Of a stretch of 32,000 nucleotides of DNA, positions 4,115-21,355 are shown piece by piece. This stretch comes from Nitratidesulfovibrio vulgaris str. Hildenborough. Lineage in GTDB: Bacteria > Desulfobacterota > Desulfovibrionia > Desulfovibrionales > Desulfovibrionaceae. The number at the start of each line of letters is the position of its first letter. Positions within the stretch are counted from its first letter, which is position 1. The notes beneath the pieces were generated by a model. It had not been told where the DNA came from and made no database searches. It saw only the letters and a list, made by a program, of their open reading frames with translations. The stretch spans positions 90,001-122,000 of the forward strand of contig NC_005863.1 of NCBI RefSeq assembly GCF_000195755.1, written 5' to 3'. The position numbers were made by a program, and so were the translations under genes.

Positions 4115-6271
4115 TCATGGGTGCATTCCGAGGCGGGATTTCGTGCCCCTGTAGACGCGGCGCAAGGCCATCCATACCGGCGTGGGGAGTTCCCTGCGCA
4201 GCCAGTTCTTGAACGCACTGCCGGGCCGCGGGTCTGAAACGGGGATGGACGGTTCTGCCTCGTGCGCTTCGGTATGCGCGAAGAAGATGTTCTTGCCGAG
4301 ACGTCCGGGCGCAAGCAGGCCTGCCTCTTCGAGATTGGTGTGAAAGCTGTGATACTCCGCCTGCAGGCAGCGGCTGTTCCGTGCGTAGAGTGCCGCCCAT
4401 GTGCCGAGGCTGGCCCGCAGGTTCGCGTCCGCATGCAACTGGTGCAGCCTCGTGATGAGGGCGTCAGGGGTCTCGTCCACGAGAAAACCTGAAACACCGT
4501 CCACGACCGCGTCTGGCAACCCCGTGCAGCGGTAGGCGAGGGAGGGGATGCCGCAGCAGGCGGCTTCCATGAGTGTCTGCCCGAACGTTTCGGCATGGCT
4601 GAAGCTCACCACCACGTCTGCCGCACGGTAGGCCGTAGCAACGGCTTCAGGGTCATGCAGGTAGCCGAGGGCCGTGAGTATGGGGAAGCGTGCGATCATC
4701 TCCTGTTCGACCACGCCGAAGCATATCACCTGAAGGTTCTCAAGCCCGGCCCCTGAAAGAGCCTCAAGACCCTCCACGGAACCCTTGAACGGCGACGAGA
4801 AGTCGACCATGGGCATGAGGACCACGAAGGCGTCCATGTCCAGCCCGAGTTGGCGGCGCGCTTCGAGCCTGTCTCCGGGGTGGAAGATGGATTCGTCGCA
4901 ACCGAGGCGAAGCAGCCGCGCCTCATGCCCGGGCGTGGTGCAGCCATCATGCTGGGCGCGTGTCCAGTTGCTGTTGGCCAGTGCGAGAAACGTGTCGCGG
5001 GCCATGACCTCGCGCTTGGCGTCCCATGCCTTGCGGATGTCCCCGGCGGCGATGGTGGGATAGGTGTCGGGGCTTGGGCAGGTGTGGTCGCACCCTGCAA
5101 GGTGTCTGACGCAGTCGAGAAAGCCGGGATGCGGGCAATGTCCGGTGAGCAGCCACAGGTCATGCAGGCAGAAGCATGTGGGCCAGCGGTCTGTAAGCCT
5201 GACGAGCATGTCCGAGTCGGCGATGGTGCAATGGAGATTGCCGCAGACGACGACATCGGGCTCGAAGGCCTCGATCTCGGAAATGATCCTCGCCGCAGTC
5301 GCCTCGAAAACATCGCGGGGACTCTGGAACCCCGTGGCCCATCCCCTGACCGTGTGCCCCGCCGAGGAAACGGCCGTGAAAAGGCGCTGGTGCGCGATAC
5401 CCGCCCCGTACTGGAACCCGATGTCGTTGACGAAGGCGACCTTGAGGGGGGGCGGGGGTGGCGGAAGAGTGGTGCGCGTGATGGGCGGCAGGCCATGCGT
5501 GGTGCGCCAAGCATTGGCCACCGGGATGTATTCGTCGGGGGATGCGTCGGGGTTGTTGGTCTTCTGTTCTTCATGCAGGCGGAACATGGCGACGGGTGCG
5601 CCGATGACATGCAGTCGGGCACCGCATGAGGCGAAGCGAAGCCACATTTCGACATCCATGCAGTAATGGAGGTCCTCCCGCACTTGCCCGCCCGCCCGCT
5701 GCCACAGGTCGCGGGTGAACATGACCTCGGGCTGGTAGAAGAACTTGCCTGTCTGCCAGCCGCCGTAGAGGTCTGAAATCTCTTCCGCAGGCAGGGTGCC
5801 ATCGGCGCAGGACGTGAGATGGGTCCCCAGATATCCCCCGTTCCGATACAGCTGGCAGCCTCCGGCTACCATGTCGGCACCGGACATGTGAAAGGCCATG
5901 GCCACAGCCGCAAGCGCCCCCGGGGCAAGCAGGTCGTCGCTGTTGAGCCATGTGACGATTTCGCCCGTGGCAAGGCGCATGCCCTTGTTGATGGCGTTCG
6001 ACTGACCGGTGTCGGGCTCTTGTATGATGCGGGCGACGTGACCCCTGTATCTGTCAAGGATGGCGGCTGTTCCGTCCTTCGATGCACCATCGACGATGAT
6101 ATGCTCTACATCGGGGTATCCCTGTTCGAGAACGGAGATGATGGTCTCTTCGATGTACTTCGCATTGTTGTAGGACGGCGTGACGATGGATATGCGAGGC
6201 CATGCACTGCCGTCGGGAAGCGTGGATGGTATGGCGACGGGGTGCTGGTTTTTCCTGAAAGCTTTGAGCAT
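4115..6271 (-). CDS. bifunctional glycosyltransferase (N-terminal GT2, C-terminal GT4/GT1-fold)
   Basis: The GT2 part shows ISIVTPSYNNAKYIEETIISVLEQGYPDVEHIIVDGASKDGT and LNSDD. The GT4 part shows SHAETFGQTLMEAACCGIPSLAYRCTGLPDAVVDGVSGFLV, an E-x7-E-like nucleotide-sugar site. Length is 718 aa. Confidence 0.85.
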   Translation of the reverse strand: MLKAFRKNQHPVAIPSTLPDGSAWPRISIVTPSYNNAKYIEETIISVLEQGYPDVEHIIVDGASKDGTAAILDRYRGHVARIIQEPDTGQSNAINKGMRLATGEIVTWLNSDDLLAPGALAAVAMAFHMSGADMVAGGCQLYRNGGYLGTHLTSCADGTLPAEEISDLYGGWQTGKFFYQPEVMFTRDLWQRAGGQVREDLHYCMDVEMWLRFASCGARLHVIGAPVAMFRLHEEQKTNNPDASPDEYIPVANAWRTTHGLPPITRTTLPPPPPPLKVAFVNDIGFQYGAGIAHQRLFTAVSSAGHTVRGWATGFQSPRDVFEATAARIISEIEAFEPDVVVCGNLHCTIADSDMLVRLTDRWPTCFCLHDLWLLTGHCPHPGFLDCVRHLAGCDHTCPSPDTYPTIAAGDIRKAWDAKREVMARDTFLALANSNWTRAQHDGCTTPGHEARLLRLGCDESIFHPGDRLEARRQLGLDMDAFVVLMPMVDFSSPFKGSVEGLEALSGAGLENLQVICFGVVEQEMIARFPILTALGYLHDPEAVATAYRAADVVVSFSHAETFGQTLMEAACCGIPSLAYRCTGLPDAVVDGVSGFLVDETPDALITRLHQLHADANLRASLGTWAALYARNSRCLQAEYHSFHTNLEEAGLLAPGRLGKNIFFAHTEAHEAEPSIPVSDPRPGSAFKNWLRRELPTPVWMALRRVYRGTKSRLGMHP

Positions 6272-7845: not shown

Positions 7846-10515
7846 CTAGTCGCCGGGCCGGTGTACGTCCGTCTCCTGTCCGTCAGCCTTGGTGCGGACG
7901 AGGTGAACCCGGGCGTACCGTTCGCGGATGAATTGTCCGTTCGAGGCTTCAAGGAATTCGTCAACCGCCCTGCGGCATCCGCTGTAGTGGTCATAGTCGT
8001 CGATGATCATGCGGCCCCCCGGTGAGATGTGGGGGGCGATACGCTCAAGGCAGGTCTTCACCGACTGGTACCAGTCGCAATCTATGTGAGCCAGCGCCAC
8101 CGGCCCGGAAGGGTAGAGGGTGTTCTCGTAGAGGCCGGGGACGAAGGTTATGCCATGTTCGGCAGGGGGCAGTCCGAGAGCGACGAAGTTGTCCTGCACA
8201 TTCTTGAGCAGGTCAGGTTCGTAGCCGTAATAGCGCTTGCCGTTGAGCCCCGTGGACTCTCCGGCGGCAATGACCGCAAAACGGGCACGTGCCTCTTCGC
8301 CATCGTTGCTGCCGGGGGGCGGGATGCACCCGAAGACATCGAAGACATGCAACGGTCGCTCTTTAGCCTTGGCCGTGGCAAGAACCATGGTCGACCCGCC
8401 GAGGGCACACCCGGCTTCGATGATACAGCCCGGGATTGCCGCCGATTCGATGAGCCCTACGGTCTCGGCGAGCCCGTGCAGGGCTCCCGGTTCGAGATAC
8501 GAAAGCCCCTCGTCGAGCACATGCCTGATGACGGCGGTCCTGCCAGTGCCGGAGGGCACCCCCCCGATGCGCTCTGCCATCTCGTCGTCGACGAGTCGGG
8601 GCAAGGGGGTCTGCGCCGTCCATTCCTCGATTCCGCTCACATCCAGCACGGCAAGGCTGCAAAGCCGCCACCAGACGATGCCGGGAAGCTGCTGCGGGAG
8701 TTTCTGCAGGTCGACAAGCTCACGCAGCAGGGGGCTTCGGTGCACAAGGGGCATGAGGTCTGCCTGCAACTGTGGCAGCTTGGAGCTGATGTCCGTGTAA
8801 AGCCCCCGTTTTATCTGGTGAAACCGCAATGATTCAGGGATGGCGGGGAACAGCTGCCGTGCGAGTCCCTTAAGGTACCCGTCCTGACACAGGTCCTTCA
8901 GCGGGACGCTGGCACAGAACTCGTACAGCCGCGTATCCAGCAGGGGAACCCGTTCTTCAATGCCGTGGGCCATGGAGTTCCGGTCGGCGTCCCGCAGCAG
9001 GTATTGCAGTTCATATGTGAACAGGGATTTCTGCTGTTGTTCCCCCCACGAAGAGGCGCCGACGAATGTCGAAATCCATTCTTCAGGGTCGGCGATGGTG
9101 TGCTTGAGGTGCAGGGCTGCGATGTCGTGTGCGTAGTCGTTTGCCCAGCCTAGCGGGTGGCTGTAGCTGTCCCATGTGCTTCTGATGGTGCGTCTGTCCT
9201 GCATGAGATGCCTTGACTGACGCAGACACCACCAGATGAGAGACATGATTCGTCTCTGTGCGAGCATGTCGCGAACGACAGCCGGATAGTACCGTTGATA
9301 GCCGCAGAACAGTTCGTCGCCACCGTGTCCGCTCATGGACACGATGACACCCAGCTTGCGCATTTCACGATACAGATGGAACTGGTTGTACGACCCCCAG
9401 AAGAGCGAAGGCTCGTCGTTGAACAGCATGTAGCGGACGATGTCGGCCGTGGGAATGGCGTCGGGATGCCGTATGGGGTTGACATGAAGCCCCAGTTTGT
9501 CAGCCAGCGCCGTGATGAGCGGAAATTCGTCGAGCATTGAAGAACTGGCAGCGTCGATGGAATAGCACTCAGGGGCGATGCCTTCCGCGACAAGGGCAGC
9601 CGCCACGTTGGCGGAATCGATCCCCGAACTGAGACACAGCCCGACATCACGGTCGCTGCGCATCCGTATGCGGCATGACTGGCGAATGAGCCCCGCCCCT
9701 TCGTCGACGAGTTCGTGAAGGCTACGCGGTGTCTCCGTGATTCTGGGCGCGTAATAGCGTGTCACCGACGGCTCATCGTCGGGGCTGGCGAGCGTAAGGC
9801 AGTGACCGGGCGGGATTTGCCTGATGTTCTCGAAGAAGGTCCGTCCCTGCGGGGCAGTCGTCAGCGCATAGGAAAGATAGGCGGAGGCCACGTCCGGGTC
9901 CCACTTTCGCAGCACCAGTCCGCTGGCGGATATGGCCTTGATCTCCGAGGCGAAGATGAGGAAATCGTGCGTGACGGCGTAGTGGAACGGCTTGACGCCG
10001 TAGTGGAACGGCTTGACGCCGAACGGGTCGCGTGCGGCGAAAAGACTGCCACGGCTGGCATCGAAGATGGCGAAGGCGAATATGCCGTTGAACCGTTCAA
10101 GGCATCCTGCGCCCCAGTGGCGGTAGGACGCAAGAAGCACCTCGGTGTCTCCGGAGGTCTCGAAGTGCTCGCCGAGTGCGGTCAGTTCACTTCGAAGTTC
10201 GATATAGTTGAAGAGCTCACCATTGAAGACGATATGCAGGTCCCCCCGGCGTAGCGGCTGGGCCGACTTGTCGGAGAGGTCGAGAATGGACAGCCTTCTG
10301 TGGCCAAGCCAGACCGGCGCGGGTTCCAAGCCGGCTGCGAGGGCGTCAGCCGAGTGGCGTCGTCCTGCCGCGAAGGCCCCGGTCGACTGCCGCCGAAAGG
10401 ATACACCGTAACCGGCGTCAGGCCCACGATGCTCCTGACTGGTGAGCATCCTGTTCAGGGGCTGGCTCGATACGTTTCTGTCTTTGCGAGATATGATGCC
10501 TGCAATGCCGCACAT
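7846..10515 (-). CDS. asparagine synthase-like glutamine amidotransferase fused to a TylF/MycF-type methyltransferase domain
   Basis: The N-terminus MCGIAGI carries the Cys2 nucleophile of class II GATases. It is followed by RDPFGVKPFHY and FASEIKA, then the synthetase PP-loop region CLSSGIDSA. The last ~228 aa (7849-8532) read IIEAGCALGGSTMVLA...AHIDCDWYQS...GGRMIIDDY, which resembles the macrocin O-methyltransferase (TylF) family. AGAGG lies 6 nt upstream of the ATG. Confidence 0.85.
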   Translation of the reverse strand: MCGIAGIISRKDRNVSSQPLNRMLTSQEHRGPDAGYGVSFRRQSTGAFAAGRRHSADALAAGLEPAPVWLGHRRLSILDLSDKSAQPLRRGDLHIVFNGELFNYIELRSELTALGEHFETSGDTEVLLASYRHWGAGCLERFNGIFAFAIFDASRGSLFAARDPFGVKPFHYGVKPFHYAVTHDFLIFASEIKAISASGLVLRKWDPDVASAYLSYALTTAPQGRTFFENIRQIPPGHCLTLASPDDEPSVTRYYAPRITETPRSLHELVDEGAGLIRQSCRIRMRSDRDVGLCLSSGIDSANVAAALVAEGIAPECYSIDAASSSMLDEFPLITALADKLGLHVNPIRHPDAIPTADIVRYMLFNDEPSLFWGSYNQFHLYREMRKLGVIVSMSGHGGDELFCGYQRYYPAVVRDMLAQRRIMSLIWWCLRQSRHLMQDRRTIRSTWDSYSHPLGWANDYAHDIAALHLKHTIADPEEWISTFVGASSWGEQQQKSLFTYELQYLLRDADRNSMAHGIEERVPLLDTRLYEFCASVPLKDLCQDGYLKGLARQLFPAIPESLRFHQIKRGLYTDISSKLPQLQADLMPLVHRSPLLRELVDLQKLPQQLPGIVWWRLCSLAVLDVSGIEEWTAQTPLPRLVDDEMAERIGGVPSGTGRTAVIRHVLDEGLSYLEPGALHGLAETVGLIESAAIPGCIIEAGCALGGSTMVLATAKAKERPLHVFDVFGCIPPPGSNDGEEARARFAVIAAGESTGLNGKRYYGYEPDLLKNVQDNFVALGLPPAEHGITFVPGLYENTLYPSGPVALAHIDCDWYQSVKTCLERIAPHISPGGRMIIDDYDHYSGCRRAVDEFLEASNGQFIRERYARVHLVRTKADGQETDVHRPGD
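9979..10020. repeat. perfect 21-bp tandem duplication (2 copies) inside the amidotransferase gene
   Basis: gtagtggaacggcttgacgcc occurs at 9979-9999 and again at 10000-10020 with 21/21 identity. It is in frame and duplicates the peptide GVKPFHY. Confidence 0.95.
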
Positions 10516-10605: not shown

Positions 10606-11295
10606 CTATCTGAAAAGCGTGAAGATGCTACGCCTTGCCGAGTAGCCGAACCTGTCCATCCAGAGCCTGTTCCGGCTCATGAAGTAGTCTATTTCAGATT
10701 TCTTGATCGACCATGGAACGCTGACCTTGCCCCTTCTGAAATAGTTCTTCCCCATGCCTTGCAGCGTGTCGAACGGGTTCACCCATTTGCGAAGCATGGG
10801 CAGACCTGTGAAGTCTGCAATCCTGTCGATGTTCTCCTGTGCTGCCGGAGACAACAGGTCTTCATAACGAATGAGCAATGTATTGGGTCGATCCATAGGA
10901 GACCATGCTTCTATGTGGGCAGACCATGTGGGGAATGCCGTCCCGTCGACCACCTGCTGCCAGGTGCACTGCACATTCTCTATTTTCGCCAGATAGTGGC
11001 GGTATGAATCGGTCGCGATGAGACCGTTGCGTATGATATAGATGGCCCGGTCGTCGCTCTCCGGTTCTTCATGGGTCTTGACGACCGTGACATGCTGTTC
11101 CGCACGTGCCTTTTCGAGAAAGTCGTCAAGTTCACCCCCGAATGGTCGCGCACCCATGAATTTGGCGATGTCGACATTGGAGTACTCGTTCGTACGTTCA
11201 TATTTCGAGTAGGTTTCAAGCCCGAAACAATGGTTGAAAATCGTCCGTAGCAGCGAATTGCCAGACCGGGGAAAGGATGTGAGCCAGACAAGCAT
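10606..11295 (-). CDS. PAPS-dependent sulfotransferase
   Basis: A 5'-PSB-like loop (SFPRSGNSLL, aa 7-16) and a 3'-PB-like segment (IIRNGLIATDSYRHY) are present. Size (229 aa) and order fit small bacterial sulfotransferases. An APS kinase gene lies in the same locus. Confidence 0.75.
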   Translation of the reverse strand: MLVWLTSFPRSGNSLLRTIFNHCFGLETYSKYERTNEYSNVDIAKFMGARPFGGELDDFLEKARAEQHVTVVKTHEEPESDDRAIYIIRNGLIATDSYRHYLAKIENVQCTWQQVVDGTAFPTWSAHIEAWSPMDRPNTLLIRYEDLLSPAAQENIDRIADFTGLPMLRKWVNPFDTLQGMGKNYFRRGKVSVPWSIKKSEIDYFMSRNRLWMDRFGYSARRSIFTLFR

Positions 11296-11382
11296 GTTGC
11301 GACCTTCTTCTATTCTGTGTTTCGTATGCTACTTGCCCATGGGACAATGATTTCCGGATGCAATGCCCATCCAGTTGACACG

Positions 11383-12804
11383 TCACCTGCGAAGAAGGCG
11401 GTTCCACAACTTTTTGAGTGTGAATCCGGTTTTCTCATCCTGTGGTGAGAATTTGACGAAGGCAGCTTCCTTGTCGGACTTGCGTTCGCTGAACCGGTAC
11501 CCTTCCGCATAGGCCGAAACGTACTCCGAATTCACATATGTAGAGAGCCTTCCTATGCACATGGCGCATCTCTGCCGGTACGGGCTTGCCGGGTCGGTTC
11601 GCATCTTCCTGTAGTAGCGTATGATTTCATCGAACGGCGCTTCGGAGATATGTTTCATCCATGAAGACGAGAGCGACGACCATTCAGCCTGATAGTTGCC
11701 TGTGCATGGTGCCACATAGCCGTTCGTCATCAGTACCGGAGTGATGAGACTGTTGAAACAGGCATGGGTCTTTACGGGCATGACCTTGTCTTCATGCATC
11801 GGAATACATTGGAACCAGCCCACCTGTTCAGCAAAGAACGAGAATGTATCTATGCCGAATTCTTTCCAGAATTCGAGGATTTCGTCTTTGCGGGTCTTGA
11901 CCTCGTCGAACCAGCCACTCTGTACCCCGATGATCATGCCTGAACCGGCCTCGTCCCTGACGCGCATCAGATTGCGGAGGTTGGCGAGAATCCTGTCGTA
12001 GTCAGCCCCAAGCCTGATGCTCTCGACGATTTCCTTTGTGTGCCCGTCGATGCTGAAGAGCACTGCGCCGACACCGAGCTCGACAAGTTCCCGGGCCACC
12101 TTGTCATCCACCAGCATGCCGTTGGTGAGGATGCGGACATGCAACCCCCTTCTGATGGCCTCGCGGATGTAGGGCATGGCCTTCTTCGATACGAACAGTT
12201 CACCTGTGCCGCAGAAGAGAAGGTCGTCTCCGGGCTTCCTCTGGTCGAGGAAGAGGTAGTAGTCCTCTTCTTTCAACTCTTGCCGTTCGGTCTTGCCCCG
12301 GCTCGCTGCGAAGTCGTAGCGCGAGTCGTCACCATGGAACGAGCACCCCCGGCATCGCAGGTTGCAGAAGTCCGTAACGCTCACCATGGTATGGTGGTAG
12401 AATGTGGAGAAGAGGAAGACGACCTCGAATGCGTCGTTGTAGTCCAGAAGGACAGGGTTGCTGCTGTAGAAGGCAGTCATGTCCAGGGCGGCAACCTTGT
12501 CCGCGAACGAGTCTCCCCATCGTGCCGGGTCGACGATGATCGTCTTTGGCAGGACTTCGGAGGTCAGCATGGGGGCTTTCCATTCCTTGTCCTCCATGAA
12601 ACGTCGCGCGTCGACGGTGCGTATGGCATCAGTGCCCAGCCATTCAGTGGCATGGTCACTGACATAGGCAAGAAAGTCGTCTCCGGCGTCTCCGAAATGG
12701 ATGACGACGGGGAGTCCGCCGCGCTGTATTTCGCGAAGTTCGTCAGGACCGAGCGCCTTGATTCCTTCAAGGGAGAAGATCGAAGACATCGTGTATCCCT
12801 TCAT
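11383..12804 (-). CDS. radical SAM enzyme (unknown reaction) with an N-terminal extension
   Basis: The canonical CxxxCxxC cluster motif FCNLRCRGC spans aa 146-154 (nt 12343-12366), followed by GTGELF and a Cys-rich C-terminal part (CFNSL...APCTGNY...RCAMCIG) that could be an auxiliary-cluster or SPASM-like region. ATG 12804 overlaps the wzt stop by 1 nt (TAATG). ATG 12789, preceded by AAGGGA, is an alternative start. Confidence 0.8.
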   Translation of the reverse strand: MKGYTMSSIFSLEGIKALGPDELREIQRGGLPVVIHFGDAGDDFLAYVSDHATEWLGTDAIRTVDARRFMEDKEWKAPMLTSEVLPKTIIVDPARWGDSFADKVAALDMTAFYSSNPVLLDYNDAFEVVFLFSTFYHHTMVSVTDFCNLRCRGCSFHGDDSRYDFAASRGKTERQELKEEDYYLFLDQRKPGDDLLFCGTGELFVSKKAMPYIREAIRRGLHVRILTNGMLVDDKVARELVELGVGAVLFSIDGHTKEIVESIRLGADYDRILANLRNLMRVRDEAGSGMIIGVQSGWFDEVKTRKDEILEFWKEFGIDTFSFFAEQVGWFQCIPMHEDKVMPVKTHACFNSLITPVLMTNGYVAPCTGNYQAEWSSLSSSWMKHISEAPFDEIIRYYRKMRTDPASPYRQRCAMCIGRLSTYVNSEYVSAYAEGYRFSERKSDKEAAFVKFSPQDEKTGFTLKKLWNRLLRR

Positions 12805-14246
12805 TATTGTGATTGTGAAGTGCGGAATGAAATGTCCGTTTCAATGTCTACAAGACCTATGAATGGAATCTGTAGACCATGCGACGGCTTGCAGACTACG
12901 AACGATCCAGCTTTCAGCAGACTGAAAAGCGGTTTGCCGGATGCAATGAGCGTCTCTGCAGAAATATACTCCAGTTGCTCTGCTATCCATGAAGGGTGCT
13001 CGCCAATCCCCACGCTGAAAGTATAGTCGCCGCAGGCCACCGGAAGCCTCATCTTCCAGCAGAGACGTAAGCGAACGTCGCGGCCGAGCGTTGCCGGAAT
13101 GCCCGAACGGGTGAGGAGGGAATTGGTGCAATAGAGGGGCAGGTTGTCCTTGGTGTTGATCGTGAGCCCTATGGCCAGTTGTTCGACATCGCGAAGCGTC
13201 GTGACTTCGATGAAGAAATGGGCGTATTGCCCCTGTTCGAACATCCGGCATGGACTACCGGCAGGGGTGCACAGGGCAACCCTGTCTATCCTGACGCTCT
13301 CTTCTTCGGCCACGATGGACTGTGCAGCATCCAGTGGGAGGAAGGCCTCGTCGGGAGGCCAGAAGTCCATGTCCCCCGCCTCGTCAACGCTGGCGGAGTG
13401 CGAGGCCGAAGCCGTTCGCGTCTCGTCGCTGACTGCAGCGGAGGCCTCGAGGCCCTTCGCCAGCGTAGGGCGGCTGTTCCCATAAAGCCGAAGCCCCGTT
13501 TCGACTTCGCCCTGATGGGTCACCCTGCCGTTTTCCAGAAGGATGACCGACGAACAGTATTTGCGCACCGCCTGTACGTCGTGGGTGACAAGCAGAATGG
13601 CAACCCCCTTGTCCAGAAGGCCCGCCATGTGGGCATGGCATTTCTGCTGGAAAAAGATGTCGCCCACCGCAAGCGCTTCATCGACGATGAGGATGTCGGG
13701 AGAAAGACATGCCTGCACAGCGAAGGCGAGGCGGACGAACATGCCGCTGGAGTAGGTCTTGACGGGCTGGTCGAAGAATTCGCCGATCTCTGCGAAATCG
13801 CGAATCTCGTCGAGCCGTTGCTCCACCTCGCGTGTAGACAGGCCGAGTGCCGTGCCGTTCACGAAGACGTTCTCCCGACCTGTGAAGTCGGGCAGGAAGC
13901 CGCTGCCGAGTTCGAGAAGCGACGCCACCCGCCCGCGAAGCAAGGCTTCGCCTGTGGTCGGCTTGAGCGCCCCCGCGAGAATCTGGAGCAGCGTGCTCTT
14001 TCCGGCACCGTTATGCCCGACAACGCCAAGGGCCTCACCCTTGCGCACAGTGAACGACACGTCCTGCAACGCCCAGAAAGGACGCCCCAGCGAGCGGCGC
14101 AGCAGCATCTGCTTGAGTCGGTCGGCCGGTCTGTCGAATATCTCGTAGCACTTGCCGAGGCGTTCTGCGGCGATGGCTACCGTAGGGTCGTCGCGCATGA
14201 TCGCGGCGACCTGCCCGTTTTCGTTGGTGTCATAGAACATCGGCAA
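12804..14246 (-). CDS. wzt: polysaccharide ABC exporter ATP-binding protein with C-terminal extension (Wzt-like)
   Basis: Walker A is GHNGAGKST, the signature is YSSGMFVRLAFA, and Walker B is ILIVDEALAVGD. An extra ~180-aa C-terminal domain (nt 12807-13349) follows the NBD, as in Wzt proteins that carry a glycan-end-binding module. The gene overlaps the wzm stop by 17 nt. Confidence 0.9.
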   Translation of the reverse strand: MPMFYDTNENGQVAAIMRDDPTVAIAAERLGKCYEIFDRPADRLKQMLLRRSLGRPFWALQDVSFTVRKGEALGVVGHNGAGKSTLLQILAGALKPTTGEALLRGRVASLLELGSGFLPDFTGRENVFVNGTALGLSTREVEQRLDEIRDFAEIGEFFDQPVKTYSSGMFVRLAFAVQACLSPDILIVDEALAVGDIFFQQKCHAHMAGLLDKGVAILLVTHDVQAVRKYCSSVILLENGRVTHQGEVETGLRLYGNSRPTLAKGLEASAAVSDETRTASASHSASVDEAGDMDFWPPDEAFLPLDAAQSIVAEEESVRIDRVALCTPAGSPCRMFEQGQYAHFFIEVTTLRDVEQLAIGLTINTKDNLPLYCTNSLLTRSGIPATLGRDVRLRLCWKMRLPVACGDYTFSVGIGEHPSWIAEQLEYISAETLIASGKPLFSLLKAGSFVVCKPSHGLQIPFIGLVDIETDISFRTSQSQ

Positions 14247-15114
14247 AGGCCTTGCGTGCTTGCATGAATACGAGATGCCCCACCCACAGGACGCAGGCGC
14301 CGAGAACAGTGACGATACCGAGGGAGACCGGTTCGGGAGCCTGACCGAAGTAGATGACGTGCCGGAATGCCTCCACGATTTCCGTCATGGGGTTGCAGCG
14401 AAGCAGGAACCGCCATTGCTCTGGCACCATATCCAGCTGGTAGACGATGGGGGTCGCGAAGAACAAGAGCTGAAGCGCTACACTCACGGCATGTTGCATG
14501 TCGCGCAGGAACACCCCAAGAGCGGAAAGCAGAAAGGCACCCCCGAGACTCCAGAGGCAGAGAGGCACGTACAGGGCAGGAATCCACAGGAGTGTGAGGT
14601 GGAATGGCATTCCCTTCATGGCAAGGGCTGCCAGCAAGATGACGAGTGCCGCCAGTGAATTGAAGAGAGACACCCCGAGATGGACAACGGGGAGGATTTC
14701 CAGCGGGAAGCACATCTTCTGTACGAAGCTGGGGCGCGCCTGAATCAGGGTGGGGGCACCGCCCGTCACCTCCGCGAAAAGCCACCACGGAACGAAACCG
14801 CAAAACAGCATGAGGGCGTAGTCGCCCACGCCCCCGCTGAAACGTGATGCCTGGTAGATGACCCCGAAGACGAAGGTGTAGACCCCCAGCACGAGAACGG
14901 GTGTGGCAAGCACCCACAGCCAGCCGAGACAGGTTCCACGGTAGCGCGCGGCGATGTCCCGGCGCAGCAGCTGCATGAAGAGGTCCCTACGTGCCACCAG
15001 CGTGCGTAGCAAGGTCACCGGATTGTGTGTCAGCGAGGTGCCTCTCCGGGAAGAGACGCACGTTATTGTGTGCGACGCAAGCGGCCCCTTGCAGGCGGAT
15101 ATATGTTCTTTCAC
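14230..15114 (-). CDS. wzm: ABC-2 type polysaccharide exporter permease (Wzm-like)
   Basis: The conserved N-terminal box reads LFMQLLRRDIAARYRGTCLGWLWVLATP, followed by about six hydrophobic helices. It lies immediately upstream of wzt. The start is a GTG at 15114, with in-frame stops just upstream. The exact start is uncertain but must precede residue ~33 to keep the conserved box. Confidence 0.85.
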   Translation of the reverse strand: MKEHISACKGPLASHTITCVSSRRGTSLTHNPVTLLRTLVARRDLFMQLLRRDIAARYRGTCLGWLWVLATPVLVLGVYTFVFGVIYQASRFSGGVGDYALMLFCGFVPWWLFAEVTGGAPTLIQARPSFVQKMCFPLEILPVVHLGVSLFNSLAALVILLAALAMKGMPFHLTLLWIPALYVPLCLWSLGGAFLLSALGVFLRDMQHAVSVALQLLFFATPIVYQLDMVPEQWRFLLRCNPMTEIVEAFRHVIYFGQAPEPVSLGIVTVLGACVLWVGHLVFMQARKAFADVL

Positions 15115-15175
15115 TAGCTAGCAGCCTGTTTTCATTCAATGATTGCGTCATGGCTATGACTATGCTTATTGAATA

Positions 15176-15190
15176 CACGGTTTTACCGTG
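15176..15190. promoter_or_regulatory. perfect 6-3-6 inverted repeat in the divergent wzm/cysC control region
   Basis: cacggt-ttt-accgtg sits inside the A+T-richer stretch about 60 nt upstream of the wzm start. The repeat itself is certain. A regulatory role is only suggested by its position. Confidence 0.35.
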
Positions 15191-15620
15191 CAGTGCAAAT
15201 GCAAGAATGAAGAATAGATGGGGCTTGCTTCATGTGATGAGGACAAAATCACCGATTTGGAGTATCCACTGGCTCACAGCCGGAAAAAAGCAGGCGCTGC
15301 CGACTGCCATCTTCCCTGAAGGCTTTTGCGGCGTTACACGCGTCATCCCTGTTTGAGGTGTTCCGGGCTGTGCATGAGCGTGATGCATGGAGTCTCCGGT
15401 GCAGGCCCGCTGTTTGATGCAGTGCCCCGTGCAGGACCGCCGGCCGGTGAGTCACGACGACGCATGCGGCGTGAGTCTCCAGGCAGACGTTGACGGCGAC
15501 AGGGACGTGTGCCGGAAGCGTTGATACGGACGCCGGGGCCCGACACCGATGTCGGATACCGATGCCGGATGCCGGGGATTGATGCCATGTTACCCCACAT
15601 ACCCAACCGACGGACAAGAC

Positions 15621-16268
15621 ATGAAATCGTGCAATACGTTTTTTTGTGACGGGAGAATACGGCGCCCCGACCGTGAGCGTCTGAACGGACATCCGGCGCG
15701 CGCCTTCTGGTTCACCGGATTGCCCAGTGCCGGAAAGTCGACCCTTGCCCACATCGCGGAAGAGGTGTTGCATCAGCGTGGCATACGTACCTATGTATTC
15801 GACGGTGACAATGTCCGGCACGGGCTTTGCGGCGACCTCGGCTTCTCGGAACATGACCGCAAGGAGAACGTACGGCGCATCGCTGAAACCGTACGACTCT
15901 TTCTGGATGCGGGGATACTCTGCCTGTGCGCCTTCGTCTCGCCGTTGCGGGCTAACAGGCAGGCAGTCCGGGATATCATCGGGCCGTGCGATTTCTTCGA
16001 GGTCTATGTGAAGTGTCCGGTCACGGTATGCGAATCACGCGACGTGAAGGGGCTCTACGGCAAGGCCCGTCAGGGGCTTGTGGAGAACTACACGGGCATA
16101 TCGGCTCCCTATGAGGAACCGGAGTCGCCCGATATTGTCGTGGATACCAGCCGGAACACCATCGAGGAGAGTGTGCAGAGTCTTACCGATTTCATCTTGC
16201 AGGTGATGACCGTCCCGTGCGCGCAGAAGGATGCCCAAGCCCCCGGCAAGGCCGTCCGTTTCCCGTAG
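15621..16268 (+). CDS. cysC: adenylylsulfate (APS) kinase
   Basis: The match to APS kinase hallmarks is near textbook: FWFTGLPSAGKST (P-loop), FDGDNVRHGLCGDLGFSEHDRKENVRRI, CAFVSPLR and YEEPESPDIVVDT. I set the start at ATG 15621 (MKSCNTFF...), which gives the usual ~29 aa before the P-loop. ATG 15549 is possible. Confidence 0.9.
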   Translation: MKSCNTFFCDGRIRRPDRERLNGHPARAFWFTGLPSAGKSTLAHIAEEVLHQRGIRTYVFDGDNVRHGLCGDLGFSEHDRKENVRRIAETVRLFLDAGILCLCAFVSPLRANRQAVRDIIGPCDFFEVYVKCPVTVCESRDVKGLYGKARQGLVENYTGISAPYEEPESPDIVVDTSRNTIEESVQSLTDFILQVMTVPCAQKDAQAPGKAVRFP

Positions 16269-16365: not shown

Positions 16366-17247
16366 ATGAATCAACCGTTCCTGAGCGTCGTCATTGCGAC
16401 CTTCAATGTTGCAGAAGTGCTCCGGGAGTGCCTGCACAGCCTCGCAAGCCAGACATTCCGTGACTTCGAGGTGGTCATCCAGGATGGCGCGTCCACCGAT
16501 GGTACCCTCGCAGTCGCACAGGAGGCTGCCGGGCGGCTGCCCAGACTGTCACTCGCAAGCGTTGCCGATTCGGGCATCTATGATGCGTGGAACCGTGCCC
16601 TGCCCCGCGTGACGGGGGACTGGGTGCTCTTTCTGGGGAGTGACGACACGCTTGCCGGGCCGGATGTACTGGCACAGTGCGCCCGCCGCCTCGCCGATTT
16701 GCCGCCGCAGGTGCTCTATGCCTGCGGTGACGCGCTCGAAGTCTACCCGGACGGTTCTTCACGCGCTGTGACCTGCACAGCCGAAGGGGCCACGCGCCGA
16801 ATGGCCGACCACATCCCGTTCTGCCATTCGTCACTCTGGCATCGGGCCTGCCTGTTCGAGGCGCGGCACTTCGACGCCACGTTGCGCATTGCCGCCGACT
16901 ACGACCTCATCTGCCGCACATGGCCCCACGACGGCGTGGGACATACTCTTGGCATCACTGTGACGCATATGGGGGTCGGGGGTGTCTCTTCAAGCCCCGC
17001 CCACAGATTGCGAACCCAGTGGGAACTTGTGCGCGTGGCAGCCCGGCACGGCCATGGGGCCTTCTCGCGTCGGCGTCTGGTCCCGCTGTGCAAGGCCGTG
17101 GGCTTGTGGGTCTTGTGCAGGCTGGCGGGCCGTCGGGCTTCTGTCATGCTGGACAGGTTGCGGGTCATGCGCGGGCTGCCCCCCTGCTGGACGACGGCAG
17201 ACCCCGCGCGCGTGGGTGGTCGCGACTCTGCCCGTGGTGATGCGTGA
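16366..17247 (+). CDS. family 2 glycosyltransferase
   Basis: The protein starts MNQPFLSVVIATFNVAEVLRECLHSLASQTFRDFEVVIQDGASTDGT and contains FLGSDD. The ATG at 16366 is preceded by GAAGG. The upstream 45 codons of the track ORF are R/P/C-rich filler. Confidence 0.85.
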   Translation: MNQPFLSVVIATFNVAEVLRECLHSLASQTFRDFEVVIQDGASTDGTLAVAQEAAGRLPRLSLASVADSGIYDAWNRALPRVTGDWVLFLGSDDTLAGPDVLAQCARRLADLPPQVLYACGDALEVYPDGSSRAVTCTAEGATRRMADHIPFCHSSLWHRACLFEARHFDATLRIAADYDLICRTWPHDGVGHTLGITVTHMGVGGVSSSPAHRLRTQWELVRVAARHGHGAFSRRRLVPLCKAVGLWVLCRLAGRRASVMLDRLRVMRGLPPCWTTADPARVGGRDSARGDA

Positions 17248-19361
17248 TGCACTGTGACGACGTCATGCTGCCGGCAGCCCTGCACCGGGAATCCTGCCCC
17301 GCCCCTGAAGGGGTTGTCACCGTTGCCGACACGACCCGGAACGCTTCCGGCCACGCGCGGCCCCGCATCTCCATCATCATCCCGGCATGGAACATCGCAC
17401 CGTGGATAGGTCAGACCCTGCGTTCCATCCTTTCGCAGACCGTCGACGACTTCGAGTGCATCGTCATCGACGACGGTTCAACCGACGGCACGGCGCAGGT
17501 GGTCGCCTCGGTCGCCGACCCGCGCATCCGCTGCATCCGGCAGCCCAACGCCGGAGTCAGCGCTGCGCGCAACAGGGGGATTGCCGAGGCGCAGGGTGCG
17601 TTCATCACCTTTCTCGATGGCGACGACTACTGGTTGCCATGTTTTCTCGAGACGCTGCTGCCTCCCTTGCTGACCCGGCCCGAGGTCGACCTCGTTTACT
17701 GCGGCATGACCATGTTCATGGACGACGACGGCACGGTGAAGCCCCAGCCGTGGGGGAATGTGCATGCGACCGGCAACGTCTGGTGGGATATGCTTTCCGA
17801 CTCGGTCATGCTCATGGGCGCATGGCTTGCCCGCGCCGAGGTCGTCAAGGGATGCCGACCTTTCGACCCGACCTTGAGGGTGGGCGAGGACAGGGACTTT
17901 CTCCTCTCGATGCTGGAGGACATCTACCATCAGCGGCACCATGAAGCCGTCGGCATCGACGCAAGGCTGTTGCGCTACCGCCAGCGCCGTGGCAGTGGCG
18001 TCAGGCAGGTGGCCGACGCCCTGCAATGCGAGTGGCACATGATGGACAGGCACCTGCGGCATGAGGGAATCCCGCCTGCCGTGCGCCGTCGGGCCTATTC
18101 CGACCTCGCCTTCAAGATGGGCGTCATCGCCGCATTCGGGGCACGTGACATCGCCCTCGCCCTGCGATGGTATGGCAAGGCATTCGCGCTATGCCCCATG
18201 AACGGCAATCTCTACTGGCTGCCGCTGCGCAAGATGTTCCTTTCACTTCGCCCACGCAGAAGGCTGCACATGAAGGTGCTCTTTCTCTCGGCCCGCGCCG
18301 ATTTCGGAGGCGGGCCTGAACATGTGCTGCAATTGCTCAGGAGACTGCCGCCAGATGTCGAAGCGGCTGTCGCCTGCCCCGAGGATGTCCCCTACTGGGA
18401 GCGCTTCCGCAATATCGTGGGTGATGACAACATGTTCAGCATGCCGCACCGGGCCTTCACGCTGGAGGCAGTGGCGCGCCTTCGACGCTTCTGTCGCAAG
18501 CGAGGGTTCGACGTGCTGCATGCCCACGGCAAGGGGGCGGGATTGTACGCCCGTGTGCTGAGTCTGCTGTGCGGCATCCCTTCGGTCTACACGTTCCACG
18601 GGGTTCACCTCGGCGGCTACGGGCCGCTCAAACGCTGGTTGTATGGTGCCTATGAACGGGCGGCCTCGTGGTGCACCCGGCGCGGCATTGCCGTCTCGAG
18701 GGGGGAGAGGGACGCCATCGAGGCCCACGGACTCATGCCCGCGTCGAAGGTCTCCGTGATCATGAATGGCGTTGAGATGCCGGAGGGCACCGCGCCGCGA
18801 CCTGCTGGCCCACCTTGGCTGGTGGTCTCTTTCAGTCGGTTCGACATGCAGAAGAACAGCCTGTTCCTTCTTGATGTCGCCCGTGCGCTGCAAGAACAGG
18901 GGCGGCTGGACGGGTTCAGGTTCCTGCTGGTCGGCGACGGCCCCGACAGGGCAAGGCTTCTGGAACAGGCGGCAGCACAGGGTCTAGGCGACAGGGTGTC
19001 CTGCCCCGGGGCGACCCCGACCCCGCATGAAGCCTACGCCGGGGCTCTATGCTATTTTTCCTCGTCACGCTGGGAAGGCATGCCTCTTGCCGTGCTGGAG
19101 GCCATGGCCCACGGATTGCCTGTCGTGGCCACGGATGTGGTGGGCAACCGCGACGCCGTCGCCGATGGAGTGACGGGGCTGCTCTATCCTGAAGGCGATG
19201 CTGGCGCTGCCGCAAGAGGGCTTGTGCGGCTTGCCGACGAGGCCGCACTATGGGCCGCGATGGCGCATGAGGCGCGTGCGTGGGTGGCGACGCGCCATGA
19301 CGTGCAGAGGATGGCCGACCGTACGTTCCATGAACTGCGCAAAGCATGCGGCAGGGCGTGA
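17247..19361 (+). CDS. bifunctional glycosyltransferase (N-terminal GT2, C-terminal GT4)
   Basis: The GT2 part shows ISIIIPAWNIAPWIGQTLRSILSQTVDDFECIVIDDGSTDGT and FLDGDD. The GT4 part starts about MKVLFLSARADFGGGPEH and ends with SSSRWEGMPLAVLEAMAHGLPVVATDVVGNRDAVADGVTGLLY. The start overlaps the previous stop (TGATG; GTG 17244 would give GTGA). Confidence 0.85.
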   Translation: MHCDDVMLPAALHRESCPAPEGVVTVADTTRNASGHARPRISIIIPAWNIAPWIGQTLRSILSQTVDDFECIVIDDGSTDGTAQVVASVADPRIRCIRQPNAGVSAARNRGIAEAQGAFITFLDGDDYWLPCFLETLLPPLLTRPEVDLVYCGMTMFMDDDGTVKPQPWGNVHATGNVWWDMLSDSVMLMGAWLARAEVVKGCRPFDPTLRVGEDRDFLLSMLEDIYHQRHHEAVGIDARLLRYRQRRGSGVRQVADALQCEWHMMDRHLRHEGIPPAVRRRAYSDLAFKMGVIAAFGARDIALALRWYGKAFALCPMNGNLYWLPLRKMFLSLRPRRRLHMKVLFLSARADFGGGPEHVLQLLRRLPPDVEAAVACPEDVPYWERFRNIVGDDNMFSMPHRAFTLEAVARLRRFCRKRGFDVLHAHGKGAGLYARVLSLLCGIPSVYTFHGVHLGGYGPLKRWLYGAYERAASWCTRRGIAVSRGERDAIEAHGLMPASKVSVIMNGVEMPEGTAPRPAGPPWLVVSFSRFDMQKNSLFLLDVARALQEQGRLDGFRFLLVGDGPDRARLLEQAAAQGLGDRVSCPGATPTPHEAYAGALCYFSSSRWEGMPLAVLEAMAHGLPVVATDVVGNRDAVADGVTGLLYPEGDAGAAARGLVRLADEAALWAAMAHEARAWVATRHDVQRMADRTFHELRKACGRA

Positions 19362-20697: not shown

Positions 20698-20995
20698 GAC
20701 TGGGCCCTCATTCCGGGTACGCGCCGCACCGGGGCATCAAGACCATGCAGCGCAGTGGAAGCCTGTGTCAGGCATGTCAGGGTCTGACCATGACTCGCAG
20801 CGGGCATGCCCCGGCAGCTGATATGCCTCGTGCCGACCGATGCGCCAGATGGTGTGCTGGTCTTCACGCGCGGCAAGGCTTGCTATCTGGAATACCCACT
20901 GAAGCTCTTCGTGCCATCCTCGATTCCATCATGATCGATATAACACACGAATGTGCTTTTCTGATTTTAAGATGATTGTCAAGAAAAGTCGTGTT

Positions 20996-21050: not shown

Positions 21051-21088
21051 CACCCAAATGGCAAACACGGCAAGACAAGGAGCTGTCC

Positions 21089-21301: not shown

Positions 21302-21355
21302 ATAGCCCGCCCCGAGACTCCCGATTTTCCAGCTTACCCCACATAGAGCACACTC

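What the first reader, a model, noticed from the sequence alone, without database searches (positions are those of the whole stretch)
10606..16268. Dedicated sulfation branch in a glycan locus: sulfotransferase plus its own APS kinase
Seen: a small sulfotransferase with 5'-PSB and 3'-PB-like motifs (10606-11295), and a near-canonical APS kinase (15621-16268) transcribed divergently from the wzm/wzt operon and followed by two glycosyltransferase genes. Established: sulfotransferases use PAPS, which is made by APS kinase. Inference: the exported glycan, or its terminal cap, is sulfated, and the locus supplies its own PAPS. Sulfated bacterial surface polysaccharides are uncommon. If the host is a sulfate reducer, which composition and gene content hint at but do not prove, this kinase would tap the respiratory APS pool for cell-surface chemistry.
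Basis: partly seen in the sequence, partly recalled or inferred. Interest (0 to 1): 0.6.

Follow-up and report, generated by a model that had tools for sequence, protein, structure and literature searches.

The report
Glycan sulfation branch on Desulfovibrio megaplasmid

Summary
10606-11295(-) encodes a sulfotransferase: Pfam Sulfotransfer_1 at 40.7 bits (cut-off 22), an AF2 model with pLDDT 93, and only PAPS sulfotransferases as best PDB fold matches. 15621-16268(+) encodes a canonical APS kinase (203 bits, about 50% identical to solved APS kinases). It is transcribed divergently from wzm/wzt and followed by two glycosyltransferase genes.

The window lies on plasmid pDV1 of Desulfovibrio (Nitratidesulfovibrio) vulgaris Hildenborough. 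The host is a dissimilatory sulfate reducer, with dsrAB and a single sat. These are the only APS kinase and the only detectable sulfotransferase in the genome, 4.3 kb apart. No cysDN is present, and plasmid-cured strains grow in defined sulfate medium, so the kinase is not an assimilatory gene.

Relatives of the sulfotransferase are often fused to glycosyltransferases. In several phyla they sit directly after wzt genes that carry a cap-reading module. Other Desulfovibrionaceae repeat the cysC + wzm/wzt + sulfotransferase design.

It is a new member of a known kind (compare the Vibrio KMM 8419 sulfated capsule cluster). This scan has noted similar modules in at least 13 other genomes. Whether sulfate is the chain-terminating cap read by Wzt remains open.

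The parts
10606..11295 (-). Sulfotransferase, 229 aa. It is the only one detected in the genome.
   Evidence: Pfam PF00685 at 40.7 bits. It is the only PF00685 hit in the genome, and no Sulfotransfer_2/3/4 hit was found. Motif residues are conserved. The fold model has pLDDT 93 and matches PAPS sulfotransferases.
15621..16268 (+). APS kinase CysC, 215 aa, with an alternative ATG at 15549. It is the only copy in the genome.
   Evidence: Pfam PF01583 at 202.9 bits, NCBIfam apsK at 230.9 bits and PRK03846 at 249.5 bits. It is the sole hit in the genome. It is about 50% identical to solved APS kinases.
14977..15620 (.). Divergent intergenic region between wzm and cysC.
   Evidence: Sequence read. 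No sigma-54 or sigma-70 consensus match lies within it and scan totals over the wider region are at chance level.
14230..14976 (-). Wzm, the ABC-2 permease of the glycan exporter.
   Evidence: Pfam ABC2_membrane at 77.4 bits. RefSeq coordinates were taken from the identical RCH1 plasmid.
12804..14240 (-). Wzt, the exporter ATPase, with a C-terminal carbohydrate-binding module.
   Evidence: ABC_tran at 80.2 bits and Wzt_C at 47.8 bits (cut-off 30.4). The nucleotide-binding domain scores 219 bits against Aquifex aeolicus Wzt structures.
11383..12789 (-). Radical SAM/SPASM enzyme between wzt and the sulfotransferase. Its role is unknown.
   Evidence: Radical_SAM at 65.9 bits, with no NCBIfam equivalog reached. 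It is kept next to the sulfotransferase in orthologous metagenome contigs at 79-85% identity.
7846..10515 (-). Fusion of an AsnB-type amidotransferase with a TylF-type O-methyltransferase.
   Evidence: Asn_synthase at 148 bits, GATase_7 at 130 bits and TylF at 76 bits. The same fusion follows the sulfotransferase in contig L015.
6400..7737 (-). GT4 glycosyltransferase.
   Evidence: Glyco_trans_1_4 at 77 bits. Its orthologue in L015 is 60% identical.
4115..6271 (-). Two-domain GT2-GT4 glycosyltransferase, 718 aa.
   Evidence: Glycos_transf_2 at 101.7 bits and Glycos_transf_1 at 58.7 bits. Its orthologue in L015 is 76% identical.
2091..4022 (-). Polysaccharide pyruvyl-transferase-like domain fused to a methyltransferase domain.
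   Evidence: PS_pyruv_trans at 37.2 bits and Methyltransf_11 at 37.8 bits.
871..2094 (-). GT2 fused to a GtrA-type membrane domain (polyprenyl-phosphate sugar synthase type).
   Evidence: Glycos_transf_2 at 39.5 bits and GtrA_DPMS_TM at 33.1 bits. It resembles PpgS at 74.8 bits, below the cut-off.
359..895 (-). Class I SAM methyltransferase.
   Evidence: Methyltransf_23/25 hits. RefSeq coordinates.
16366..17247 (+). GT2 glycosyltransferase downstream of cysC.
   Evidence: Glycos_transf_2 at 80 bits. The start codon is taken from the identical RCH1 record.
17247..19361 (+). Two-domain GT2-GT4 glycosyltransferase, 705 aa. It is the last gene of the cysC operon.
   Evidence: Glycos_transf_2 at 114 bits and Glyco_trans_1_4 at 105.8 bits.

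Best explanation
This is a sulfation branch built into an ABC-transporter-dependent (Wzm/Wzt) surface-glycan locus on megaplasmid pDV1 of Desulfovibrio vulgaris Hildenborough. The chromosomal dissimilatory ATP sulfurylase Sat makes APS for respiration. The plasmid's CysC, the only APS kinase in the cell, phosphorylates a small share of that APS to PAPS. The 229-aa sulfotransferase, the only one in the cell, transfers the sulfate on the cytoplasmic side. The acceptor is the polyprenol-linked glycan that the locus's glycosyltransferases assemble, and transfer happens before Wzm/Wzt exports the glycan. Shown here: the identity, integrity and uniqueness of both genes, the host's sulfate respiration, the exporter type, and the glycan affinity of the sulfotransferase family. 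Inferred: the acceptor, the flux from the respiratory APS pool, and the presence of sulfate in the product. Undecided: whether sulfate decorates the chain or forms its terminal cap.
For: Enzyme identity rests. There is one APS_kinase hit and one Sulfotransfer_1 hit in a 99.95%-complete genome, both in this locus. No Sulfotransfer_2/3/4 was found. The genome has one ATP sulfurylase, dsrAB, and no CysD above cut-off. The genome is 3,570,858 + 202,301 bp, and the window is 100% identical to the N. vulgaris RCH1 plasmid and 99.7% identical to the DP4 plasmid. Plasmid-free strains are cultured in defined sulfate medium (PMC3691511). cysC heads an operon with two glycosyltransferases and faces the wzm-wzt-rSAM-sulfotransferase-... 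operon. The sulfotransferase family has 1483 representatives, and many are N-terminal domains of proteins that also carry GT2, GT4 or methyltransferase domains. Relatives lie in glycan loci. Of 80 genome loci with relatives, 20 have a Wzt-type ATPase within 10 kb. An orthologous operon is kept in metagenome contigs. Only 1 of those 80 loci has a cysC within 10 kb. That fits a host which, unlike the others, has no other PAPS source. Other Desulfovibrionaceae repeat the design. G141 has cysC-wzm-wzt-GT4-sulfotransferase. G013 has a Wzt-GT2-sulfotransferase fusion with cysC 10 kb away. In the family sample, 49 of 55 genomes with Sulfotransfer_1 have a strong APS kinase, against 45 of 96 without (counted by hand, and related genomes are not independent). 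As precedent, the chemically proven sulfated capsule cluster of Vibrio sp. KMM 8419 holds extra cysC/cysDN, sulfotransferases and an ABC exporter (PMC11641403).
Against: No chemical evidence of a sulfated glycan in D. vulgaris was found in the paper library. D. vulgaris biofilm matrix is reported to be poor in carbohydrate (PMC3431258), so the locus may be weakly expressed in the laboratory. No clear CysQ-type PAP phosphatase was found. The only IMPase-family protein scores 93.9 bits against a CysQ cut-off of 228.8, so disposal of the by-product PAP is unexplained. The PSB loop has Arg where eukaryotic enzymes have the catalytic Lys, although this holds for at least 90% of the family and an R-x-G loop is described for NodH (PMC11625862). 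The acceptor is inferred from context only.
Confidence: 0.75

Rival explanations
1. The sulfotransferase acts on something other than the exported glycan. Candidates are a lipid, a small metabolite, or one of the plasmid's PEP-CTERM proteins. Its position in the operon would then reflect co-regulation only.
For: The best sequence and fold matches in the PDB are cytosolic small-molecule sulfotransferases. The locus is flanked by XrtA/PEP-CTERM system genes: prsK upstream and a PEP-CTERM protein at 31289-31972.
Against: The family is repeatedly fused to GT2, GT4 and sugar-type methyltransferase domains. It is also embedded in wzm/wzt operons in several phyla. The resemblance to SULT enzymes is only 13-19% identity, which reflects the shared fold.
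Confidence: 0.1
2. cysC serves sulfur assimilation or some other need for PAPS, for example feeding the chromosomal CysH-like protein. Its place beside the sulfotransferase would then be coincidental.
For: A PAPS_reduct-family protein exists on the chromosome (137 bits to PF01507).
Against: That protein is below every NCBIfam cut-off for PAPS or APS reductase (112 against 154). A sulfate reducer makes sulfide in excess. Plasmid-cured strains grow in defined sulfate medium. The other species of the genus that was sampled has no APS kinase. cysC is co-transcribed with glycosyltransferases.
Confidence: 0.05
3. The module is intact in sequence but silent or non-functional in laboratory D. vulgaris, so that no sulfated product is made under the usual conditions.
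For: The biofilm matrix is carbohydrate-poor. No promoter consensus was found in the 644-bp divergent region. The plasmid is readily lost without a growth cost.
Against: All reading frames are open and the catalytic residues are intact. The locus is kept at 99.7-100% identity in three N. vulgaris strains. An orthologous operon at 52-85% protein identity exists in other organisms, which indicates purifying selection.
Confidence: 0.1
4. The kinase and the sulfotransferase-fold enzyme handle a PAPS-like cofactor other than PAPS, as in the Campylobacter O-methyl-phosphoramidate pathway (Cj1415 kinase). This would fit the amidotransferase-methyltransferase fusion next door.
For: This lead came from an earlier scan note (e1-2130611). 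An AsnB-TylF fusion lies directly downstream of the sulfotransferase.
Against: The kinase is about 50% identical to bona fide APS kinases and passes the apsK equivalog cut-off by 92 bits. The window holds no homologue of the other phosphoramidate-pathway genes, namely a nucleotidyltransferase, a class I glutaminase or a glutamine kinase. APS is abundant in this host. I did not compare the kinase with Cj1415 itself, because no reference sequence was to hand.
Confidence: 0.03

Closest known systems
Sulfated capsular polysaccharide cluster of Vibrio sp. KMM 8419 (PMC11641403); the authors call PAPS-synthesis genes plus sulfotransferase genes in a polysaccharide cluster a hallmark of sulfated polysaccharide synthesis
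   Same: A sulfotransferase, a cluster-borne cysC, glycosyltransferases and an ABC exporter sit in one surface-glycan locus.
   Different: The Vibrio cluster carries second copies of cysD, cysN and cysC, has three sulfotransferases and uses KpsMT-type export, and its product is chemically proven. Here only cysC is supplied, APS must come from the dissimilatory Sat, export is Wzm/Wzt with a Wzt_C module, and the product is unknown.
Capped ABC-transporter-dependent O-antigen systems (E. coli O9a WbdD/Wzt-CBM, Klebsiella O12 WbbB, Aquifex aeolicus WzmWzt; PMC9445017, PMC3482155)
   Same: Wzm is paired with a Wzt bearing a C-terminal carbohydrate-binding module. Multi-domain GT2-GT4 polymerase-type enzymes are present. 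Modifying enzymes are encoded directly after wzt.
   Different: The caps listed in PMC9445017 are methyl, methyl-phosphate and Kdo, and sulfate is not among them. The sulfotransferase here has no coiled-coil ruler. Several methyltransferases in the locus could supply the cap instead.
Rhizobial sulfation systems: NodPQ + NodH, and the polysaccharide sulfotransferase KpsS of Mesorhizobium loti (named in PMC11625862; details from my own knowledge)
   Same: A dedicated PAPS supply is paired with a carbohydrate sulfotransferase for a surface or secreted glycoconjugate. The R-x-G type PSB loop is shared with NodH.
   Different: NodPQ duplicates the whole ATP sulfurylase plus kinase. The rhizobial enzymes belong to other sulfotransferase subfamilies (NodH is in PF13469). 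Those hosts are aerobes with assimilatory sulfate reduction.
Aeromonas salmonicida A450 O-antigen cluster, ORF19 (PMC4483657)
   Same: A small (216-aa) sulfotransferase-domain protein is encoded directly after a 438-aa wzt in an ABC-transporter-dependent O-antigen cluster.
   Different: No sulfate was reported in that O-antigen repeat unit, and no cysC was described in the cluster. I could not test whether ORF19 belongs to the same subfamily.

Membership tests
PAPS-dependent sulfotransferase (Pfam PF00685 Sulfotransfer_1) | Profile match above the curated cut-off | tested here: met
   40.7 bits against a cut-off of 22, E 2.4e-10.
PAPS-dependent sulfotransferase (Pfam PF00685 Sulfotransfer_1) | 5'-phosphosulfate-binding loop (P-K-x-G-T-T type) | tested here: met
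   P9-R10-S11-G12-N13-S14 aligns with PKSGTT of SULT1A1. Arg replaces Lys in at least 90% of 71 family members. An R-x-G loop is described for NodH.
PAPS-dependent sulfotransferase (Pfam PF00685 Sulfotransfer_1) | 3'-phosphate-binding Arg...Ser pair and catalytic His | tested here: met
   R89, S97 and H75 are invariant in the family alignment and align with R130, S138 and H108 of SULT1A1.
PAPS-dependent sulfotransferase (Pfam PF00685 Sulfotransfer_1) | Sulfotransferase fold | tested here: met
   The model has pLDDT 93.3. The top Foldseek hits are all sulfotransferases crystallised with PAP or PAPS, with E down to 4e-8 and TM 0.54-0.63.
PAPS-dependent sulfotransferase (Pfam PF00685 Sulfotransfer_1) | Sulfate transfer from PAPS to an acceptor | not testable with these tools
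   This needs an enzyme assay.
Adenylyl-sulfate kinase CysC (TIGR00455, PF01583) | Equivalog profile above the cut-off | tested here: met
   apsK at 230.9 bits (cut-off 138.7) and PRK03846 at 249.5 bits (cut-off 163).
Adenylyl-sulfate kinase CysC (TIGR00455, PF01583) | P-loop and D-G-D-N substrate motif; close likeness to characterised enzymes | tested here: met
   The translation shows GLPSAGKST, FDGDNVRHGL and FVSP. The alignment to the human PAPSS2 kinase domain is about 50% identical over 174 residues.
Capped Wzm/Wzt (ABC-transporter-dependent) glycan pathway | ABC-2 permease plus Wzt ATPase | tested here: met
   ABC2_membrane at 77.4 bits; ABC_tran at 80.2 bits; 219 bits to A. aeolicus Wzt.
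Capped Wzm/Wzt (ABC-transporter-dependent) glycan pathway | C-terminal carbohydrate-binding module on Wzt | tested here: met
   Wzt_C at 47.8 bits against a cut-off of 30.4, residues 315-417.
Capped Wzm/Wzt (ABC-transporter-dependent) glycan pathway | A chain-terminating enzyme that makes the cap | tested here: inconclusive
   Candidates in the locus are the sulfotransferase, the TylF domain and two further methyltransferases. None has a recognised coiled-coil ruler, and context cannot choose between them.
Capped Wzm/Wzt (ABC-transporter-dependent) glycan pathway | Initiating polyprenol-phosphate transferase and ligation to lipid A-core | not tested
   The initiating transferase was not searched for. 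Two Wzy_C/WaaL-family genes exist (C2:58882 and C1:742983), but no link to this locus was shown.
Polysaccharide cluster with its own PAPS supply (Vibrio KMM 8419 type) | Sulfotransferase and PAPS-synthesis genes inside the glycan cluster | tested here: met
   The sulfotransferase and cysC lie 4.3 kb apart around wzm/wzt. Only the kinase step is cluster-borne. No cysDN is present in the genome.
Polysaccharide cluster with its own PAPS supply (Vibrio KMM 8419 type) | Sulfate ester in the product | not testable with these tools
   No structural study of a D. vulgaris surface glycan was found.

The most novel reading that the evidence does not exclude
Sulfate is the non-reducing-end cap of the glycan. 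On this reading the small sulfotransferase encoded after wzt terminates chain growth, and the Wzt C-terminal module reads the sulfated terminus as the licence for export. This would be a cap chemistry beyond the methyl, methyl-phosphate and Kdo caps described so far. In this host the cap would be paid for from the respiratory APS pool, so glycan chain length and export would depend on sulfate respiration. In support, relatives of this sulfotransferase lie directly downstream of Wzt_C-bearing wzt genes in at least six loci from different phyla. In some of those loci, sulfotransferases (plus, in L068, a hexapeptide acyltransferase) are the only non-GT enzymes among the annotated neighbours, and one neighbouring sulfotransferase carries a coiled coil. 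Against it, this locus also has several methyltransferases, and relatives also lie beside wzt genes without the module.
Probability: 0.3. Interest if true: 0.7.

Novelty: new member of a known kind. Interest (0 to 1): 0.45.

Why it matters
D. vulgaris Hildenborough is the genetic model for sulfate-reducing bacteria, and its plasmid affects biofilm formation. A strain without pDV1 makes about three times less biofilm (PMC3333781). A sulfated surface glycan would change cell-surface charge, metal binding, and mineral and steel attachment, all of which matter for corrosion and bioremediation work. It would also show that a respiratory intermediate, APS, is shared with an anabolic branch through a single plasmid-borne kinase. 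Deletion tools, a barcoded transposon library that covers pDV1, and plasmid-cured strains already exist (PMC10102598, PMC3691511). The prediction can therefore be tested directly. The same strains would show whether sulfate can act as a Wzt-read chain cap.

Tried and rejected
- Folding the sulfotransferase without an alignment gave an unusable model (pLDDT 35). I repeated it with a 71-sequence alignment.
- The word-indexed homologue search found only 9 relatives and gave a false impression of rarity. The exhaustive search found 1483.
- Full-text searches for twelve guessed DVUA locus tags returned nothing. My tag guesses are unverified and are not used.
- No paper in the library links D. vulgaris to PAPS, an APS kinase or a sulfotransferase of this locus.
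- The 2019 Glycobiology census of chain-termination chemistries is not held. I cannot say whether it already lists sulfotransferases.
- A sigma-54 consensus search and the sigma-70 and terminator scans gave chance-level counts and nothing in the divergent spacer.
- The Wzt C-terminal module aligns too weakly to the A. aeolicus structure (4.3 bits) to map cap-pocket residues.
- phmmer with the Wzt C-terminal part found no match in 80 related loci, although Pfam recognised Wzt_C in all ten that I tested. That earlier blank was a sensitivity limit.
- An anaerobic sulfatase-maturase role for the radical SAM gene was considered. I dropped it because no such NCBIfam model appeared among the 25 best hits shown; whether the genome holds a sulfatase was not checked.
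- The lower G+C of the sulfotransferase (52%; GC3 0.66 against 0.70-0.78 for its neighbours) is too mild to argue for separate acquisition.

Full report

- The 229-aa product of 10606-11295(-) matches Pfam Sulfotransfer_1 at 40.7 bits, against a curated cut-off of 22.
- The product of 15621-16268(+) matches APS_kinase at 202.9 bits. It also matches the NCBIfam apsK equivalog at 230.9 bits, against a cut-off of 138.7. A longer frame starts at 15549.
- Between them on the minus strand lie wzm (14230-14976), wzt (12804-14240, with a Wzt_C module at 47.8 bits) and a radical SAM/SPASM gene (11383-12789).
- cysC is followed by a GT2 gene and a GT2-GT4 gene.

**Where the window lies.** The genome has two contigs of 3,570,858 and 202,301 bp, and the window is on the smaller one. 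Seven kilobases around the finding are 100% identical to plasmid pDEVAL01 of Nitratidesulfovibrio vulgaris RCH1 and 99.7% identical to the DP4 plasmid. From memory, the two contig sizes equal those published for D. vulgaris Hildenborough and its plasmid pDV1. RefSeq annotates the two genes as 'sulfotransferase domain-containing protein' and 'cysC'. The host is a dissimilatory sulfate reducer: dsrA scores 693 bits with dsrB next to it, and there is one ATP sulfurylase.

**The sulfotransferase.**

- phmmer against the PDB gives SULT1A1 as the best match (E 1.5e-5). That alignment, together with a 71-member family alignment, places all the cofactor motifs.
  - The 5'-phosphosulfate loop is P9-R10-S11-G12-N13.
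  - K73-T74-H75 contains the catalytic His.
  - The 3'-phosphate pair is R89 and S97.
  - F-R-R-G lies at 186-189.
- H75, R89 and S97 are invariant in the family.
- The Arg in place of the textbook Lys is a family trait (at least 90% of members). It is not a lesion of this copy.
- A model built with the alignment has pLDDT 93.3. Its best PDB fold matches are all PAPS sulfotransferases.
- The family is large, with 1483 representatives at E <= 0.001.
- In many members the domain is the N-terminus of a long protein that also carries GT2, GT4, FkbM-type or class I methyltransferase domains. This is the strongest argument for a glycan acceptor.

- The kinase is about 50% identical to the APS kinase domain of human PAPSS2, and all 24 PDB hits are APS kinases, including those of Arabidopsis, Penicillium and M. 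tuberculosis.
- It is the only APS_kinase hit in a 99.95%-complete genome.
- The sulfotransferase is the only Sulfotransfer_1 hit, and no Sulfotransfer_2, 3 or 4 was found. The cell therefore has one maker and one evident user of PAPS, 4.3 kb apart.
- There is no CysD or CysN. The one PAPS_reduct-family protein on the chromosome is below every curated cut-off for PAPS or APS reductase and for CysD.
- APS can therefore come only from the respiratory Sat.
- Strains cured of pDV1 are routinely grown in chemically defined sulfate medium (PMC3691511).

**Locus anatomy and conservation.**

- The minus-strand genes run wzm, wzt, radical SAM, sulfotransferase, AsnB-TylF fusion, GT4, GT2-GT4, pyruvyl-transferase/methyltransferase, GT2-GtrA, methyltransferase.
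- Gaps between them range from overlaps to about 130 bp, with no convincing terminator.
- Three metagenome contigs carry the same order. Protein identities to the window are:
  - Wzt ATPase domain, 81%
  - Wzt C-terminal module, 52%
  - radical SAM, 79-85%
  - sulfotransferase, 69%
  - AsnB, 70%
  - TylF, 66%
  - GT4, 60%
  - GT2-GT4, 76%

. The unit is therefore under selection in other organisms.

**Comparative pattern.**

- At least 508 genome loci encode a relative of the sulfotransferase, and I examined the best 80 with 10-kb flanks.
- Only one of the 80 has a cysC nearby. That is expected if those hosts make PAPS for assimilation anyway. It explains why a sulfate reducer without any other APS kinase needs one in the locus.
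- Twenty of the 80 have a Wzt-type ATPase within 10 kb, and twelve of these ATPases carry a C-terminal extension of at least 147 residues.
- All ten extended ATPases that I tested are Wzt_C by Pfam.
- In L020, L030, L049, L058, L066 and L068 the sulfotransferase gene starts at or just after the stop of such a wzt.
- Within Desulfovibrionaceae, a strong APS kinase occurs in 94 of 151 sampled genomes and Sulfotransfer_1 in 55.
- 49 of the 55 genomes with Sulfotransfer_1 also have the kinase, against 45 of the 96 without. I counted these by hand, and related genomes are not independent.
- Two family members repeat the design with other sulfotransferase subfamilies.
  - G141 has GT2-cysC-wzm-wzt-GT4-sulfotransferase.
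  - G013 has a 1004-aa protein joining a Wzt ATPase domain, a GT2 domain and a sulfotransferase domain, with cysC 10 kb away.
- This particular subfamily is rare in the family, found in 2 of 151 genomes.

**Cap or decoration.**

- A Wzt with a carbohydrate-binding module normally reads a terminal cap. The caps listed so far are methyl, methyl-phosphate and Kdo (PMC9445017).
- The order wzm-wzt-modifying enzyme recalls wzm-wzt-wbdD of E. coli O9a (from my own knowledge).
- In L068 the only non-glycosyltransferase enzymes found after wzt are the sulfotransferase and an acyltransferase.
- In L020 and L089 three sulfotransferases follow wzt. One of those in L020 carries a coiled-coil region, as terminator 'rulers' do.
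- In Aeromonas salmonicida a 216-aa sulfotransferase-domain gene follows wzt, although no sulfate was seen in the repeat unit (PMC4483657). That would be compatible with a substoichiometric cap.
- Against a cap in D. vulgaris, three points stand:
  - The locus has a TylF domain and two more methyltransferases.
  - The enzyme has no coiled coil.
  - Relatives also lie next to wzt genes without the module (L024, L060, L018).
- I put the cap reading at about 0.3.

**Rivals.** The alternatives below are each unlikely, for the reasons given in the Rival explanations section.

- A non-glycan acceptor.
- An assimilatory role for cysC.
- A silent module.
- A phosphoramidate-type cofactor, a lead from an earlier scan note.

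The main weakness of the favoured reading is the lack of any chemistry. A second gap is the missing PAP phosphatase: the only IMPase-family protein in the genome is well below the CysQ cut-off.

**Novelty.**

- A sulfotransferase plus PAPS genes inside a polysaccharide cluster with an ABC exporter has been described and backed by a solved sulfated capsule structure in Vibrio sp. KMM 8419.
- This scan has noted comparable modules in at least 13 other genomes, and some of those notes raise the same cap idea. I reached that idea independently (note).
- Three things are new here:
  - The host is a genetically tractable sulfate reducer.
  - The supply is kinase-only and must draw on respiratory APS.
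  - There is comparative evidence that this sulfotransferase family is tied to Wzt exporters that carry the cap-reading module.
- I found no paper that states this for D. vulgaris.

Noticed in passing
L107:7067-10081 (-) (genome G013, Desulfovibrionaceae): A 1004-aa protein encoded directly after a wzm gene joins a Wzt-type ABC ATPase domain (residues 70-202), a GT2 domain (447-534) and a sulfotransferase domain (718-993; Sulfotransfer_3 at 126.9 bits). No Wzt_C hit was found. A second sulfotransferase, a WsaF-like glycosyltransferase and a GT4 follow, and an APS kinase lies 10 kb away. An exporter ATPase fused to a sulfotransferase looks undescribed.
   Followed up: partly
L101:7989-13746 (genome G141, Desulfovibrionaceae): This stretch shows a second family example of the same design: GT2-like, cysC (243 bits to the window's CysC), wzm, wzt without a binding module, a GumK-like GT4, then a 296-aa Sulfotransfer_1 protein on the opposite strand.
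   Followed up: partly
L020:1774-8568: A groundwater Deltaproteobacteria MAG has wzm-wzt(Wzt_C) followed by three sulfotransferases interleaved with GT2 and GT4. The second sulfotransferase (526 aa, Sulfotransfer_3) carries a coiled-coil region at 377-460, which is the architecture of WbdD-type terminators.
   Followed up: partly
G000:C1:1758106-1758819 (L014:1462-2253, -): This is the only inositol-monophosphatase-family protein in the genome. It scores below the curated cut-offs for CysQ (93.9 against 228.8), HisN and SuhB. How this cell removes the PAP made by sulfotransfer is therefore unclear.
   Followed up: partly
G000:C1:1649142-1649651 (L007:1225-2097, +): This is a chromosomal PAPS_reduct-family protein of 290 aa. 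It is below every NCBIfam cut-off for CysH, APS reductase and CysD, and is not in a cys operon. Its function is unknown.
   Followed up: partly
Desulfovibrionaceae genomes: Many APS kinase domains in the family sit in open frames of 560-650 aa, probably fusions with CysN or an ATP sulfurylase. A second, weaker class of hits (65-90 bits, frames of about 200 aa) is common in the family but absent from this genome. Neither was examined.
   Followed up: no
window 12804-14240 compared with L016:2-1108: In the orthologous metagenome operon the Wzt ATPase domain is 81% identical but the C-terminal binding module only 52%. The sulfotransferase (69%) is also less conserved than the radical SAM enzyme (79-85%). 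This may mean that the recognised terminus differs between the two organisms.
   Followed up: no
G000:C2:58882-59295: The plasmid carries its own Wzy_C/O-antigen-ligase-family gene (76 bits), about 31 kb upstream of the window, in addition to a chromosomal one at C1:742983. It could attach the plasmid-encoded glycan to its anchor.
   Followed up: no
window 11383-12789 (-): The radical SAM/SPASM protein has an N-terminal extension of about 135 aa and reaches no curated family. It is the best-conserved partner of the sulfotransferase in the orthologous contigs. Its chemistry on the glycan is unknown.
   Followed up: partly
window 19666-24886: A tyrosine recombinase and a 1176-aa helicase-PLD protein bound the glycan locus on the right. 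An earlier scan report reads the latter as Mokosh type II. Its G+C (54%) is well below that of the locus.
   Followed up: no
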